Part shown: positions 73 through 39,912 of the stretch, one piece after another | How the letters are laid out: each line of letters begins with the position of its first letter | How positions within the stretch are numbered: position 1 is the first letter of the stretch | Source of the DNA: Malassezia furfur | Lineage: Eukaryota | DNA: 39,912 nt | Reading direction: 5' to 3' (one strand) | NCBI GenBank assembly: GCA_052055015.1 | Contig: JBQJIT010000056.1 | Translations under genes and position numbers: made by a program | The notes under the pieces: generated by a model | Told to the model about the DNA's origin: nothing | Databases searched by the model: none | Seen by the model: only the letters and a program-made list of their open reading frames with translations

Positions 73-661
73 ATGAATCCACACCAGCAGGACAAGGTTG
101 ACATCTCGGTACGTTGTGCATGCCGCATGCATGCTGACTTGCCAGTCGCTCACGGAAGAAGAGCAGAAGCTCTTCCGTCTGTACGGCAAGCTGCCGACCC
201 GTAAGGACCTGCTCGCCAACAAACTCAAGGTAGGTTTGGTATCACTGCTCACCCCACAGGAGCGCAAATACTTTGATTCGGGCGATTACGCACTCTCTAA
301 GGCGGGGCGCGCGCCGAAGCAGTCGGTTGGGACCACGATCCCCAACCCAGACATGGTACCGCACGCGGCCAACGTGCAGCCGGGCACGCCGCCCATCCAC
401 ATCCCCGGCCACGCCGGCTCGCCGCCCCCCGACGGCCACGCGACGCCGATGGGCATTCCTGGGCGAAACGGCTCGAGCCCCACGGGCGGGCATGCCCACC
501 GGCTCTCTGCCTCGATTGGGAGCAACGTATTCGGCGCATCGCCGTCGCGGTCGTTGTTCCCTACTGCCACTGGCGTCCACGCAGGCAGTCCCGGCCGCGA
601 GCCAACGAGTGCGCTGGCGCGCGGCTCGATGGAGGCGGACGACGCGATGCGCGACGCCTAA
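73..661 (+). CDS. IGO1: Endosulfine/ARPP-19 family protein (Igo1/Igo2-like PP2A inhibitor)
   Basis: Exons 73-108, 146-229, 260-661; introns 109-145 (37 nt) and 230-259 (30 nt, in frame). Spliced product MNPHQQDKVDISSLTEEEQKLFRLYGKLP...KERKYFDSGDYALSKAG carries the diagnostic YFDSGDY Greatwall/Rim15 phosphosite. Confidence 0.92.
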
Positions 662-902
662 ATGCTTAACCCCCCGCATAACAGCGGTGTGGTGCGACGC
701 GGTGCGTGTCCGAGATTTGTGTGTGTGTGATGCGTCGAGGCTATGTACATTGTGGTGCCTGTGCGGTCCGCCCGAGACGGACCTGCGTACCATAGACCCT
801 GGGACCCCCGCCGGTTGTATGTAAATCTCTCCTTCCCACGTGACAAGGCGTGTGGGGGCGCGTGCTGCCTACGCCTACCACGGTGCGCAACGCGTTGGAG
901 CA

Positions 903-1428
903 ATGGATCCCATCACGCAGCTCGAGGACTCGCTCGACACACTGCTCAAGGTGATGGCATCAGCAATCGCCTACCTCTCGCGCAAGGCCGGGCACAAACA
1001 GGTGAATCCGCGTGTGCCGCTCACGGTACTCGGCACGACCGAAGCGCTGTCCGACGACGTGCTGAAGGCGAACCGCGAGGAGCTTGTGCACGACCTTGTG
1101 TCGCAGGCCAAGGAAGTTGAGCAGCACATCCGTGCGCTGCCGAGCCTCGATACAGACGAAGAGGCGCGGGTACGTGTGCCGCCCCACTGACGCAGACCGC
1201 CCGCTTCGAGGCGCTGCAGACACGCCTGCACACGGCCAACGATGCGTACCGCGCCGCGGTACAGGAAGCGCGTATGTGCCGGCCGCTTACCCAGACACAC
1301 TGCTCGGCCAGCTCGATACGCTGCTCGAGCGCCTGTGCGCCGAGCGCCAAGCGGCGCGCGACGTGCTCGACCCCCCGCCGGCCGCATCACGTGGCACAAG
1401 TGGAGGCGGCGTCGCGCGAACCACCTGA
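903..1428 (+). CDS. MED21: Mediator subunit Med21/Srb7-like
   Basis: Exons 903-1169, 1196-1271, 1295-1428; introns of 26 and 23 nt (GTACGT..CTGACGCAG; GTATGT..CTTACCCAG). MDPITQLEDSLDTL N-terminus, LVHDLVSQAKEVEQHIRALPS helix and coiled-coil C-terminus match the Med21 pattern. Confidence 0.8.
1386..1405. promoter_or_regulatory. Candidate E-box (ATCACGTGG) plus GTGGAG element upstream of the SREBP gene, inside the last MED21 exon
   Basis: CACGTG at 1388-1393 and CAAGTGGAGG at 1397-1406, about 70-90 nt before ATG 1478. Function is inferred only. Confidence 0.35.
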
Positions 1429-1477
1429 TTTCGGACGCGGCGGACGGGTGGCGCCACTACTTGCCTTCTGATCTGCG

Positions 1478-37229: not shown

Positions 37230-37264
37230 ACATATACATGGCGTTGCTAGCTGGCTCTACGCGC

Positions 37265-38708
37265 TTAGTTTTGTACATGGTAGTGGCTCAGTTGGCGGTC
37301 AAGCGACTCGTGCGGGTCCTCCAAGGTGGAGCCGTCGCCAATCACGCGGTCGGCCGCCAGGCCGGCGCCCTGGGCGTCGTGGCCGAACTGCGGGAAGTGT
37401 GCCTTGTCCGGCGTGGTGCGCTCAATCTCTTCGCGCGACGGCACCGGCAGCGAGTCCTGGCGGCGCGGCGCGGCGCGTGTATCGTGCGCGGCGGGCTGAG
37501 CGTTGCCGGTGGACTCGGGCGCCTGCGACTCGCGCAGCATCTGTTGCCGCGCCTGGGCCTGCAGACGTACCTCGCGGCGGAAGCTGATCACCTCGTTCAG
37601 GATGAGCTTCTTCATGCTCTCGATGTCGTCCACCTGCTCGAAACTGAAGTCAAATTTACTCGAGCACACCGGCTCGTCCGCCGGGTCGTGCCAGACGGCC
37701 AAGTACGGATGGCGGAGCGCCTCGTCGCAGGTGATGCGCTCCGCCGGGTCGAAGGCGAGCAGGCGGCGGAGCAGGTCGAGTGCAAGCGGGTTGGCGTCCG
37801 GGAATAGCTGCTCAAACGGCACACGCGGCTTGAACGGGAGCGACTTGATGTACTGCTGTGCACGTGGGCTGGCAATGCGCGCCAGCATGTCGTCCGGCGG
37901 CGTGCCGAGGTAGTAGAGGATCTGGTTGAGCTGGTCGACGTAGTCGCGGCCCTTGAAGAGCGGCTTGCCGCCGAGCAGTTCGGCGAGGATGCATCCCACG
38001 GACCATAGATCGACTGGGTCAGTGCTTCACGTACTTGCGGTGGTGTAGTTCTGGTGCGAGAGCATAATTTCCGGCGCGCGGTACCACCGTGTAGCGACGT
38101 ACTCGGTCATGAATGCCTGTGCGCCCGGCATGACCGCCTGCCCGTCCGCATCAAAGCCCCGCGACAGGCCAAAGTCGCAGATTTTCAGCTCACAGTCGGC
38201 GTTCACGAGCAGGTTCCCGGGCTTGAGGTCGCGGTGGAGCACGTTGGCGCTGTGGATGTACTTGAGGCCACACAGCGTCTGGTAGATGAAGCTCTGGAAA
38301 TGTGCGTCGCTCAGCGGCTGGCCGGACCGGATGATGGCGTGCAGGTCCGCCTCCATGAGCTCCTCGTAGAGGTATACCTCGTTGAACGACTGGGGATTCG
38401 TAATGTCCAGGTCGTACAGGCACGTAATGTTCTTGTGTCCGCGAAAGTGACGCAAGAGTCTGTGTCAGCGCGCATGCCACCTACTTGATCTCGCGCAAGG
38501 CGCGCTTGGTCAGGATCCGCTTGGTGAAGACGTTGGAGATGCGCTTAATGGCGATGCTCTCGCCCGACGCACGGTGCACCGCCGACGCAACACATCCGTA
38601 CGCGCCCTGGCCGAGCCCCTTGGTAATGCTGTACGCTGGATCGACCCAAAACGTCTGCGACAGGACCGTCGCCTGTACGCGGTGTGGCAGCTGTGCGTCG
38701 CTGCTCAT
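37265..38708 (-). CDS. SLT2: Cell-wall-integrity MAP kinase (Slt2/Mpk1 subfamily)
   Basis: Introns 38460-38484 (25 nt) and 38014-38034 (21 nt). Motifs [49 protein letters not shown], activation loop TEY and [12 protein letters not shown]. Confidence 0.96.
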
Positions 38709-38841
38709 GGCGGCCGTCACCAGCGTTCGCGACGCTGCGTTCTTGGCGGCGCCGCGCGGCGCCGGAATTCCGTACCGGCCTCGGCCGAGTGTGCATGGGC
38801 CTCGCGGCGCGTCGAGCGATTCGTCCTTGTCGTGGATCGGC

Positions 38842-39912
38842 ATGGCGAGGCCGAACGACGCACGCCAAGGCCGCCGCGCGCCGCCGCCGCGCGCTCCGCC
38901 GCCGGCACTCAGCGCGACCCTGCGTGCGCTCCGCACCAACTGGAAATTCGCCGCGATCTGCCAGTTCCTGCTCACGTTTGACGAGGCGATCCAGCTCGAC
39001 GGGTTCCAAACCCAGGTACGTCGCGTGACCTCACGCAGCAACTCGAGACCGCGCTCGACCGCGCCGACACGCACAGCATTGCCGAGCTCGCGCTCAAGCT
39101 GCTCCACACGCTCCCGCGCAGCCGGTCGGTGACGCTTGACGCGTGGCAGGACGCGCTCCGCCGCGAGTGGAATGCGCGCGCCGACGACGCGACCCCACGC
39201 GTGCTGGGCACCGACGACGCGCCGATCGCGTGGACGTCGTTGGACATCGGTGCGCAGCTCGATGTGCTTCATGCGCTGTGCGAGTGGCAACTGGAGCGTC
39301 CCGACCGCCTGCGCCGGCTCGTCGGCACCGACGAAGAGGCCGTCAGCTGGCGCGTCGACCCGGCGGGCTGGGACCGCGAGGGGAACACGTATTGGCTGTT
39401 TGACGACAACCGGCTGTGGGTACAGCGCGCGCCGCCCAAACCCAAGAAACGCAAGGCACCCGTGCCCAAACGCGCTGCGAAAAAGCGTGCCGCACCGCCG
39501 CCGCCCCGACCTCGTCGCGGCGGTCGCCGCTCGTCGCGCCTGAGCCGCGATGCCGAGTGGGAAGAGGCCCCGCCCGAGATTCTGCGTCCAGAGGACGTGT
39601 TCGACAGCGGCTCAGAGCTGTCCAACCCGCCGTCCGAAGACGAGCACGAGGATAGCACGTTTGTCGAGTTCGAGACGCTGTGCGTCTCCCTCGAAGACTG
39701 GCAGCGCTTCCTCGAGCGCTTTGCCACGTCCAAGCACCCCGACGAGCGCAGCCTGTACAAGTACCTGGCTAATGAGGTCTATCCGCGCGTCGAGGAGGTG
39801 ATGCTCGCCGAGCAGCGCCGCCAGGCGCTCGAGGAGGCGATGCAGCACCGCAAGCGTAGCTCGCGCATCGCCATGAAGGAGAGCGAGCGCGAGGAACGCG
39901 AGCGCGAGCTCA
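38842..39912 (+). CDS. DDT/WHIM-domain chromatin-remodelling accessory protein (Ioc3/Rsf1-like), 3'-partial
   Basis: ATG 38842; LRTNWKFAAICQFLLTF; intron 39016-39038 (23 nt). Then QLETALD..WTSLDIGAQLDVLHALCEWQL (WHIM1-like), WRVDPAGWDREGNTYWLFDDNRLW, FETLCVSLEDW and RKRSSRI. The frame stays open to the window end; the ORF track misses the second exon. Confidence 0.8.

What the first reader, a model, noticed from the sequence alone, without database searches (positions are those of the whole stretch)
109..39038. Pervasive ultra-short (21-28 nt) spliceosomal introns with the branch point fused to the 3' splice site
Seen: I resolved 46 GT-AG introns in 18 genes. Of these, 44 are 21-28 nt (most 22-25) and the other two are 30 and 37 nt. 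Most start GTACGT (variants GTATGT, GTAGGT, GTGCGT, GTACGC/A, GTATGC). Almost all end CT[C/G/A/T]AC-N1-3-YAG, with the putative branch A typically 6-8 nt from the 3' end and no polypyrimidine tract. Removing them restores conserved motifs (RAG|RDG in RecQ, GCA|TWPAFW in GH16, REIK|LLRH in the MAPK). Known: typical fungal introns are about twice this size or longer; sizes like these are mainly known from Paramecium-type ciliates, chlorarachniophyte nucleomorphs and some microsporidia, and Malassezia is known for short introns. Inference: donor-to-branch spacing of only about 15 nt leaves little room for U1 and U2 to bind together, so the spliceosome may be reduced or modified, for example independent of the U2AF pyrimidine tract.
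Basis: partly seen in the sequence, partly recalled or inferred. Interest (0 to 1): 0.78.

Follow-up and report, generated by a model that had tools for sequence, protein, structure and literature searches.

The report
Tiny 21-28 base introns of Malassezia
This stretch of a Malassezia skin-yeast genome really is peppered with introns only about 24 bases long, but very short introns are already a published hallmark of this genus, so the finding is true and largely ordinary.

Summary
I recovered the same 46 GT-AG introns in 18 of about 26 genes. 44 are 21-28 nt, and the other two are 30 and 37 nt (mean 24.0). Most start GTACGT (29 of 46). A CTNAC-type branch motif places the putative branch A 5 nt from the intron end in 33 of 46, and there is no room for a pyrimidine tract. 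The strict motif occurs 31 times against 0.11 in shuffles. Removing the introns joins Pfam profile coordinates seamlessly and gives gap-free alignments to homologues. In eight genes, 17 of 20 introns sit at the identical codon position in a syntenic contig of another Malassezia-like species, where only the splice signals are conserved.

The window is Malassezia: the best named hit is M. yamatoensis at 80%. Very short introns are already published for this genus (M. sympodialis mean 30 bp with 99% RNA-seq support; M. restricta median 30). Branch points anchored next to the 3' splice site are known in Yarrowia, Trichomonas, Giardia and Stentor, and Stentor has the same 5-nt tail.

No paper that I found analyses the branch site or spliceosome of Malassezia.

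The parts
109..145 (+). intron 1 of endosulfine-family gene, 37 nt
   Evidence: Joins the ATG exon to the frame that carries the Pfam Endosulfine match. GTACGT..CTGAC..CAG.
230..259 (+). intron 2 of endosulfine gene, 30 nt (3n, no in-frame stop)
   Evidence: Removal gives ..KLK|ERKYFDSGDY... Motif GTAGGT..CTCAC..CAG.
1170..1195 (+). intron 1 of Med21 gene, 26 nt
   Evidence: Frame restoration. Exon 1 matches Pfam Med21 positions 1-101 of 144.
1272..1294 (+). intron 2 of Med21 gene, 23 nt
   Evidence: Frame restoration.
5450..5472 (-). intron 1 of RecQ helicase gene, 23 nt
   Evidence: Restores GRAG|RDG. Helicase_C ends at the exon end. L010 has an intron at the same codon position.
5326..5348 (-). 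intron 2 of RecQ gene, 23 nt
   Evidence: RecQ_Zn_bind continues in the next exon. Same position in L010.
7006..7029 (+). intron 1 of an unknown gene (about 6750-8000), 24 nt, 3n
   Evidence: Motif only (GTACGT..CTGAC..CAG). No in-frame stop and not seen in L010. This is the weakest member.
7407..7427 (+). intron 2 of the same unknown gene, 21 nt, 3n
   Evidence: L010 has an intron at the same codon position.
11709..11731 (+). GH16 gene intron 1, 23 nt
   Evidence: Restores GCA|TWPAFW. Same position in L010 (read by eye).
11891..11913 (+). GH16 intron 2, 23 nt
   Evidence: Frame restoration. Same position in L010.
12004..12026 (+). GH16 intron 3, 23 nt (branch motif TTCAC)
   Evidence: Frame restoration. 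Same position in L010.
12079..12103 (+). GH16 intron 4, 25 nt
   Evidence: Frame restoration. Same position in L010, where the donor is GC.
12319..12342 (+). GH16 intron 5, 24 nt
   Evidence: Has an in-frame stop if retained. Same position in L010.
12423..12445 (+). GH16 intron 6, 23 nt
   Evidence: Same position in L010 and in L001.
14663..14687 (-). NDUFA9-like gene intron 1, 25 nt
   Evidence: Gap-free alignment with 8 homologues across the junction. Same position in L010.
14372..14398 (-). NDUFA9-like intron 2, 27 nt
   Evidence: Same position in L010 (25 nt) and in L004/L005, where the intron is about 77 nt.
14102..14126 (-). NDUFA9-like intron 3, 25 nt
   Evidence: Gap-free alignment. 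Absent from L010 and L001.
16093..16114 (-). WD40 gene intron 1, 22 nt
   Evidence: Frame restoration. Same position in L010.
15434..15458 (-). WD40 gene intron 2, 25 nt
   Evidence: Frame restoration and motif only. Absent from L010.
17512..17535 (+). NECAP/DUF1681 gene intron 1, 24 nt, 3n
   Evidence: Pfam DUF1681 positions run 1-59|61-102 across it. Same position in L010 and L001.
17679..17703 (+). NECAP gene intron 2, 25 nt
   Evidence: Same position in L010 and L001.
17760..17784 (+). NECAP gene intron 3, 25 nt
   Evidence: Same position in L010.
18245..18266 (-). DUF2462 small-protein gene intron, 22 nt
   Evidence: Same position in L010. Weak Pfam DUF2462 match in exon 2.
18732..18752 (+). 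intron of an unknown membrane-like gene, 21 nt
   Evidence: In-frame stop inside it. Same position in L010.
23198..23223 (+). esterase-like paralogue 1, intron 1, 26 nt
   Evidence: Frame restoration. Homologous position in L010 and in paralogue 2.
23247..23268 (+). paralogue 1 intron 2, 22 nt (follows a 23-nt micro-exon)
   Evidence: Frame restoration. Same position as in paralogue 2.
23407..23428 (+). paralogue 1 intron 3, 22 nt
   Evidence: Frame restoration. An L010 paralogue has an intron at the homologous position.
23792..23816 (+). paralogue 1 intron 4, 25 nt (branch motif CTAAT, acceptor TAG)
   Evidence: Removal gives ..TPE|MLRLGGQW.., parallel to paralogue 2 ..TSE|MLELAGRW...
24516..24538 (+). 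esterase-like paralogue 2 intron 1, 23 nt
   Evidence: Frame restoration. Homologous position in L010.
24562..24585 (+). paralogue 2 intron 2, 24 nt (follows a 23-nt micro-exon)
   Evidence: In-frame stop if retained. Donor GTACGA.
24724..24747 (+). paralogue 2 intron 3, 24 nt
   Evidence: In-frame stop if retained. Same position in L010.
25114..25141 (+). paralogue 2 intron 4, 28 nt
   Evidence: Frame restoration. Homologous position in L010.
30868..30891 (-). intron 1 of a small minus-strand gene (MGRSA|KMYKKP|AKRR..), 24 nt
   Evidence: Two perfect motifs flank an 18-nt micro-exon. Splicing gives an 83-codon ORF.
30829..30849 (-). intron 2 of the same small gene, 21 nt
33886..33907 (+). intron 1 of an unknown small gene, 22 nt (GTATGC donor, CTCAT branch motif)
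   Evidence: Joins the ATG exon to the downstream frame.
34055..34080 (+). intron 2 of the same gene, 26 nt
   Evidence: Frame restoration.
34250..34274 (+). intron 3 of the same gene, 25 nt
   Evidence: Frame restoration.
35015..35036 (+). Tdp1 (tyrosyl-DNA phosphodiesterase) gene intron 1, 22 nt
   Evidence: Frame restoration.
35433..35454 (+). Tdp1 intron 2, 22 nt
   Evidence: Pfam Tyr-DNA_phospho positions run 22-131|143-403 across it.
36369..36391 (+). TFIIE-beta gene intron 1, 23 nt
   Evidence: Frame restoration. In-frame stop if retained.
36495..36515 (+). TFIIE-beta intron 2, 21 nt, 3n
   Evidence: The motif, and a TFIIE_beta core match that starts at the next exon.
36663..36685 (+). 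TFIIE-beta intron 3, 23 nt
   Evidence: TFIIE_beta ends before it and TFA2_Winged_2 starts after it.
37035..37059 (+). TFIIE-beta intron 4, 25 nt
   Evidence: Frame restoration.
38460..38484 (-). MAP kinase gene intron 1, 25 nt
   Evidence: Pfam Pkinase positions run 1-49|52-176 across it. Restores REIK|LLRH.
38014..38034 (-). MAP kinase intron 2, 21 nt
   Evidence: Pkinase positions run 52-176|179-263 across it. In-frame stop if retained.
39016..39038 (+). intron of a WSD/DDT-like gene, 23 nt
   Evidence: Frame restoration. The flanks have GC3 of 0.90 in the spliced frame.

Best explanation
The window is nuclear DNA of a Malassezia species, in the group nearest M. yamatoensis. The 46 elements are ordinary U2-type GT-AG spliceosomal introns that this genus has compacted almost to a physical floor.

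Each intron consists of four parts:
- a 5' splice-site hexamer, GTACGT or a near variant, which would be read by U1 and then U6;
- a spacer of 6-12 nt whose sequence is free;
- a branch-site pentamer CT(C/G/T/A)AC, which would pair with U2;
- after one to four further bases, YAG.

Because the branch A lies only 5-8 nt from the intron end, the first AG after the branch is used. There is no pyrimidine tract, as is usual in fungi. The intron is probably recognised as one unit (intron definition).

Shown here: the signals, their excess over chance, the restoration of frames and homology, and the conservation of intron positions across species with only the signals and the length conserved. Inferred: actual excision in RNA, the identity of the branch nucleotide, and use of a standard spliceosome core.
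For: - Taxon: the NDUFA9-like exon hits M. yamatoensis at 80%, other Malassezia species at 62-69%, and other Ustilaginomycotina at about 50%.
- Excess over chance: 31 strict motifs against 0.11 in shuffles.
- Pfam profile coordinates are continuous across the introns: Pkinase 1-49|52-176|179-263, DUF1681 1-59|61-102, Tyr-DNA_phospho 22-131|143-403, and RecQ Helicase_C followed by RecQ_Zn_bind.
- The spliced NDUFA9-like protein aligns gap-free at all 3 junctions with 8 homologues.
- In 8 genes, 17 of 20 window introns lie at the identical codon position in the syntenic contig L010. The introns there are 22-28 nt and only the splice signals are alike.
- One of these positions carries an intron of about 77 nt, with TACTAAC about 13 nt before the AG, in the more distant L004/L005. 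This shows shrinkage of an orthologous intron.
- Uniform architecture across the catalogue.
- Published genus data: mean 30 bp with 99% RNA-seq support in M. sympodialis (PMC5389616), and median 30 in M. restricta (PMC9241646).
Against: - No RNA evidence for this window.
- The branch A is assigned by motif only.
- 7 of the 13 introns whose length is a multiple of three have no in-frame stop, so frame logic cannot confirm them. One of these (7006-7029) rests on the motif alone.
- The published means and medians (30) are higher than the 24 seen here. The exact distribution of this species may therefore differ from the published ones, or those figures may include a long tail.
- The state of the spliceosome is unknown.
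Confidence: 0.88

Rival explanations
1. One reading: the introns are so short, with 15-21 nt from donor to branch and no pyrimidine tract, that the Malassezia spliceosome must be reduced or remodelled. For example, it may have lost U2AF-type 3' site recognition or changed the bridging between U1 and U2.
For: - The gap between the 5'ss hexamer and the branch pentamer is only 6-12 nt in 44 of 45 introns.
- The linker from branch A to the AG is 2-5 nt, too short for a pyrimidine-tract binding protein.
- For Stentor, the authors report that regions of branching factors facing the active site are not conserved and that proteins are slightly reduced in size (PMC9505925 abstract).
- No Malassezia paper that I found contradicts it.
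Against: - Nothing in the window bears on spliceosome genes. Rfam found no snRNA here.
- Stentor, with even shorter introns, keeps all snRNAs and most proteins.
- Most fungi lack a pyrimidine tract anyway (PMC2483917).
- Relatives in the same syntenic region (L004) have introns of 37 to about 77 nt with the same donor type, so the machinery handles both sizes in this lineage.
Confidence: 0.2
2. Some of the elements whose length is a multiple of three and that carry no stop codon are not constitutive introns. They are retained or alternatively spliced coding segments that add 7-10 residues.
For: - 7 of the 13 such introns have no in-frame stop.
- These introns are not depleted: 13 of 46 against one third expected, unlike what I recall for Paramecium.
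- The intron at 7006-7029 has no comparative support.
Against: - They carry the same full set of signals as the rest.
- 17512-17535 and 7407-7427 are at conserved intron positions in L010.
- The DUF1681 profile runs 59|61 across 17512-17535.
- Endosulfine and TFIIE-beta read better without them.
Confidence: 0.1
3. The elements are not introns at all. They would be assembly frameshifts, recoding sites or a dispersed repeat.
For: No direct RNA evidence was available.
Against: - Their sequences differ except for the splice signals.
- Their positions are conserved across species with diverged spacers.
- They occur only on the coding strand of genes.
- The strict motif is about 280-fold above chance.
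- The genus has RNA-seq-verified introns of this size.
Confidence: 0.01

Closest known systems
Annotated nuclear introns of Malassezia sympodialis and M. restricta (PMC5389616; PMC9241646; review PMC7426719)
   Same: Same genus, GT-AG introns and a very small size. M. sympodialis has 5350 introns with mean 30 bp and 99% RNA-seq support. M. restricta has 2150 introns with median 30 bp. Annotators there had to set minimum intron lengths of 10-20 nt.
   Different: - The window's introns are shorter and tighter: mean 24.0, with 44 of 46 in 21-28 nt.
- They are denser: 46 in about 26 genes and 18 of about 26 genes spliced, against 1.2 per gene in M. sympodialis and 27% spliced genes in M. restricta.
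- The M. sympodialis paper does not contain the words 'branch' or 'spliceosom'. I searched only passages of the other two for 'intron'. The signal architecture described here is therefore not stated in what I read.
- The sample here is only 40 kb.
Anchored branch point-AG introns of intron-poor eukaryotes: Yarrowia lipolytica, Trichomonas vaginalis, Giardia lamblia (Irimia and Roy 2008, PMC2483917)
   Same: A strong branch consensus of the WCTRAY type, at a fixed and very short distance from the terminal AG, with no pyrimidine tract. The distance is 2 nt in Yarrowia and 4 nt in Trichomonas and Giardia. Here 3 nt lie between the A and the AG in 33 of 46 introns.
   Different: - Those genomes are intron-poor and their introns are much longer (Yarrowia median 204 nt in that paper's table). 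Here most genes are spliced and the whole intron is about 24 nt.
- The middle base of the branch motif is mostly C or G here rather than A.
Tiny introns of ciliates: Paramecium (mean 25 nt, PMC8997360 abstract) and Stentor coeruleus (15-16 nt, PMC9505925)
   Same: Intron length is near a floor and the length distribution is narrow. In Stentor the branch A leaves a 5-nt 3' tail, the same as the modal tail here.
   Different: - Ciliate introns are AU-rich (75.6% in Stentor) with a weak branch consensus. Here the introns are 58% G+C with a strong CTNAC motif.
- There is no depletion of lengths that are multiples of three (13 of 46).
- The lineage is unrelated, so this is convergence. Chlorarachniophyte nucleomorph introns of 18-21 nt are a further case that I recall but did not look up.

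Membership tests
U2-type GT-AG spliceosomal introns | GT at the 5' end and AG at the 3' end, with an extended donor consensus | tested here: met
   46 of 46 start GT and end YAG. 43 of 46 fit GTNNGT.
U2-type GT-AG spliceosomal introns | Branch-site motif (YTNAY) upstream of the 3' splice site | tested here: met
   46 of 46 have a YTNAY pentamer. 43 of 46 have CTNAC. The branch nucleotide itself has not been mapped.
U2-type GT-AG spliceosomal introns | Removal restores the reading frame and homology | tested here: met
   Pfam coordinates are continuous in the MAPK, NECAP, Tdp1, RecQ and TFIIE-beta genes. Three gap-free junctions in the NDUFA9-like protein. Long ORFs are restored in 18 genes.
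U2-type GT-AG spliceosomal introns | Excision seen in RNA, with lariat formation | not testable with these tools
Malassezia very short introns (published genus trait) | The DNA is from the genus Malassezia | tested here: met
   The top named hits are all Malassezia at 62-80%. The next best are other Ustilaginomycotina at about 50%. I did not build a phylogeny.
Malassezia very short introns (published genus trait) | Intron length of about 30 nt or less | tested here: met
   Mean 24.0 and median 23.5, against published values of mean 30 and median 30.
Anchored BP-AG architecture (Irimia and Roy 2008) | Fixed short distance from branch A to AG, and no pyrimidine tract | tested here: met
   33 of 46 share one distance and all lie within 5-8 nt of the intron end. 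The longest T run was 2 or less in 40 of 45.
Anchored BP-AG architecture (Irimia and Roy 2008) | Occurs in a highly intron-poor genome | tested here: not met
   There are 46 introns in about 26 genes of the window, and 18 of those genes are spliced. This is a sample of 40 kb only.
Ciliate-type tiny introns | AU-rich introns, a weak branch consensus, and avoidance of stop-free lengths that are multiples of three | tested here: not met
   Intron G+C is 0.58 and the CTNAC motif is strong. 13 of 46 have a length that is a multiple of three, and 7 of those have no in-frame stop. The avoidance rule in Paramecium is recalled, not looked up.

The most novel reading that the evidence does not exclude
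Part of the genus Malassezia has driven orthologous introns down to a hard floor of 21 nt. An example is the NDUFA9-like intron, which is about 77 nt in one relative and 25-27 nt here and in L010. The branch A is fixed 5 nt from the intron end, the same tail as in Stentor.

This would point to a universal steric minimum for the second catalytic step. It would also make Malassezia, which can be transformed and edited, the first fungal model for tiny-intron splicing. On this reading its spliceosome carries specific adaptations, such as lost or shortened 3'-site or branch-bridging factors, that have not been described.
Probability: 0.2. Interest if true: 0.6.

Novelty: already known. Interest (0 to 1): 0.3.

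Why it matters
It also shows that the explanation is an already published genus trait, not a new kind of splicing.

Some residual value remains:
- The window's lineage has shorter and denser introns than the figures in print (mean 24 nt, about 1.8 per gene).
- The branch A sits at a near-invariant 5 nt from the 3' end, as in Stentor.
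- Intron positions are mostly shared with one relative (17 of 20) and mostly absent from another (3 of 20). Malassezia is therefore a good system for studying intron shrinkage and loss, and the minimal geometry that a spliceosome tolerates.
- Public annotations of these genes show errors at such introns, for example a 6-residue gap at a junction and a fused 1004-residue protein. That is a practical warning for gene prediction in this genus.

Tried and rejected
- The whole-genome search for snRNAs failed because no genome is held for this window. No spliceosome inventory was therefore possible.
- Rfam found no family at gathering score on the window.
- The scan's earlier notes hold nothing on this genome or on Malassezia.
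- I rejected these candidate GT..AG elements:
  - minus-strand 12412-12441, the antisense image of a plus-strand intron;
  - minus-strand 1541-1577/1579, antisense to the HLH gene;
  - plus 7527-7563, because removing it would break a frame that aligns to L010 through to the C-terminus;
  - plus 4409-4441 and minus 37644-37669, which lie inside well-aligned coding sequence.
- The minus-strand ORF 27231-30578 is a mirror of the plus-strand gene: GC3 is 0.87 on plus and 0.61 on minus.
- Literature searches for a description of the Malassezia branch site or spliceosome found none (passages read). The library lacks most subscription journals, so 'not in print' is not established.
The L010 lengths given in this report are read from the printed output. 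No tail statistics are given for L010.

Full report
**What the window is.** The 39.9-kb window is G+C-rich, 58-73% in 2-kb steps. It is densely packed with eukaryotic genes on both strands. A search with the last exon of the NDUFA9-like gene gave only Malassezia among the best named hits: M. yamatoensis 80%, then M. pachydermatis, M. nana, M. sp. CBS 17886 and M. cuniculi at 64-69%. Other Ustilaginomycotina followed at about 50%. Everything below therefore rests on the window, related contigs and the literature.

**Checking the observation.**
- A strict pattern (GTA[CT]GT, a short spacer, CTNAC, up to five bases, YAG) occurs 31 times on the two strands. The mean in 200 dinucleotide-preserving shuffles is 0.11 (maximum 2). 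A looser pattern gives 48 against 3.4.
- Removing the candidates fuses short frames into long ORFs in gene after gene.
- Reading the unresolved places by eye added a GH16 intron with a TTCAC branch motif, the two endosulfine introns and a GTATGC-donor intron, and a small minus-strand gene with an 18-nt micro-exon between two introns. It also added a fourth intron in the first esterase-like paralogue.
44 are 21-28 nt, 34 are 22-25 nt, and the other two are 30 and 37 nt. The mean is 24.04 and the median 23.5.
- Eight further genes in the window show no intron: HLH, a TsaD/Qri7-like gene, a class II aminoacyl-tRNA synthetase, Mit_KHE1, POP1, an S28 peptidase, a K/E/A-rich repeat protein and one unknown gene.

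**Are they introns?** Four independent lines say yes.
1. Pfam profile coordinates run on across the gaps when exons are scanned separately: Pkinase 1-49, 52-176, 179-263; DUF1681 1-59, 61-102; Tyr-DNA_phospho 22-131, 143-403. RecQ Helicase_C ends at one exon end and RecQ_Zn_bind resumes two exons later. The TFIIE-beta domains are split at exon borders.
2. The spliced NDUFA9-like protein aligns without a gap at all three junctions with eight homologues, from Malassezia to Cryptococcus.
3. 32 of the first 45 introns have a length that is not a multiple of three (28 of them meet a stop within 100 codons if retained), and 15 of 45 carry an in-frame stop inside the intron.
4. Comparative evidence. 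One scan of metagenome contigs returned syntenic Malassezia-like contigs.
   - In L010 (protein identity 33-68% in the unspliced comparison), 17 of the 20 window introns in eight genes lie at the identical codon position (C 1 of 2, GH16 6 of 6, NECAP 3 of 3, F 1 of 1, DUF2462 1 of 1, WD40 1 of 2, NDUFA9 2 of 3, RecQ 2 of 2). 14 of these come and three were read by eye.
   - The 22 L010 introns validated inside ungapped alignments are 22-28 nt. They share only the splice signals with their window counterparts.
   - The esterase-like paralogues also share three homologous intron positions with L010.
   - L001, a third species, has only 3 of the 20.
   - L004/L005, a more distant relative with 51% G+C, carries the NDUFA9 intron at the same position and phase. 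There it is about 77 nt long, with TACTAAC about 13 nt before the AG (my count).
   - The tiny introns are therefore shrunken versions of ordinary orthologous introns, and relatives differ mainly by intron loss and length.

**Anatomy.**
- Donors: GTACGT 29, GTAGGT 6, GTATGT 5, GTGCGT 3, and three singletons.
- Acceptors: CAG 42, TAG 4.
- Branch-like pentamers: CTCAC 20, CTGAC 15, CTTAC 5, CTAAC 3, and three singletons.
- The putative branch A is followed by 5 nt in 33 introns, 6 in 9, 7 in 2 and 8 in 2. It lies at intron position 16-22, and at 29 in the 37-nt intron.
- The spacer between the donor hexamer and the branch pentamer is 6-12 nt in 44 of the first 45, and its composition is unremarkable.
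- The few bases between the branch and the AG are 66% C, but they are too few to form a tract. T runs of three or more occur in 5 of 45.
- Introns are 58% G+C against 64% for the window.
- Lengths that are multiples of three are not depleted (13 of 46), and 7 of those 13 have no in-frame stop.
- The phases printed for the small gene N come from a wrong frame choice. From, both of its introns are phase 0.

**Mechanism.** The simplest reading is ordinary U2-type splicing by intron definition. U1 and then U6 would read GUACGU, U2 would pair with CUNAC, and the first AG after the branch is used because it is the only one in reach. This is inferred; no RNA or lariat data could be consulted.

- Most fungi lack a pyrimidine tract (PMC2483917, passage read).
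- Stentor splices 15-16 nt introns whose branch A is at position 10, leaving a 5-nt tail. It keeps all snRNAs and most spliceosomal proteins (PMC9505925: abstract and sections 1 and 2.1 read).
- Paramecium introns average 25 nt (PMC8997360, abstract in the search listing).

**What is known.**
- For M. sympodialis, the curated annotation has 5350 introns of mean 30 bp, 99% with RNA-seq support. Read mappers were set to introns of 10-2000 bp (PMC5389616: passages and Table 2; the Fig. S8 legend in the supplement; the figure itself is a picture and could not be read).
- For M. restricta, Table 1 of PMC9241646 gives 2150 introns with average/median 37.2/30. Its re-annotation used minimum intron lengths of 20 and 15 (PMC6473144).
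- A review says Malassezia genes contain 'very short introns' (PMC7426719).
- Branch points anchored next to the AG without a pyrimidine tract are described for Yarrowia lipolytica (2 nt) and for Trichomonas and Giardia (4 nt). Short preferred distances are described in several Candida species (PMC2483917).
- The words 'branch' and 'spliceosom' do not occur in the M. sympodialis paper.
- Searches combining Malassezia with spliceosome, branch point, splice site, intron size and related terms found no analysis of the Malassezia branch site or spliceosome (passages). The study that couples spliceosome complexity to intron diversity in 24 fungi does not mention Malassezia or Ustilaginomycotina in its text; its supplementary table was not seen.
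- The library lacks most subscription journals, so absence from print is not proven.

**Verdict.** The phenomenon is already a documented trait of Malassezia, and the fused branch/3' site has precedents elsewhere.

New in detail only:
- the window's lineage has a tighter and shorter distribution than the published means;
- it has a higher intron density;
- it has a near-invariant 5-nt branch tail;
- nearby relatives show the same positions with introns of 22-28 nt, about 77 nt, or none.

Noticed in passing
window 27150-30578 (+): A gene of about 1100 codons encodes a low-complexity K/E/A-rich protein with long AAKEAEEKK-type repeats and no Pfam match. It explains the AT skew of 0.43 at 28-30 kb.
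   Followed up: partly
window 30850-30867 (-); 23224-23246 (+); 24539-24561 (+): Micro-exons of 18, 23 and 23 nt lie between two tiny introns. The first is in a small gene of about 83 codons that begins MGRSA.
   Followed up: partly
window 22650-23860 and 24030-25300 (+): Two tandem esterase-like paralogues, with no Pfam match at the threshold used, have all four introns at homologous positions. L010 also has two tandem copies.
   Followed up: partly
proteins P0006, P0010: Public annotations stumble at these introns. The M. nana protein lacks 6 residues exactly at the first NDUFA9 junction. The M. cuniculi entry is a 1004-residue fusion of the NDUFA9-like protein with the neighbouring WD40 protein. 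Several entries are named 'lysine N-methyltransferase efm5', although they are NDUFA9/40-kDa complex I subunit homologues.
   Followed up: partly
L010:12690-12713 and 13030-13060 (minus strand): In the GH16 orthologue of the relative, one tiny intron appears to use a GC donor (GCATGT) and another an AAG acceptor. Both are at positions where the window has canonical introns (read by eye).
   Followed up: no
L001, L010, L004/L005 versus window 4600-25300: Synteny is conserved, but intron content differs strongly between relatives. L010 shares 17 of 20 window introns and has at least five of its own (NDUFA9 139.0, WD40 418.7, RecQ 674.3, GH16 97.7 and 346.3). L001 shares 3 of 20. L004 has longer introns of 37 to about 77 nt.
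   Followed up: partly
window 12412-12441 (-): A GT..AG element with a branch-like motif lies on the strand opposite a real plus-strand intron (12423-12445). It is a mirror-image false positive that could mislead motif-only scans.
   Followed up: yes
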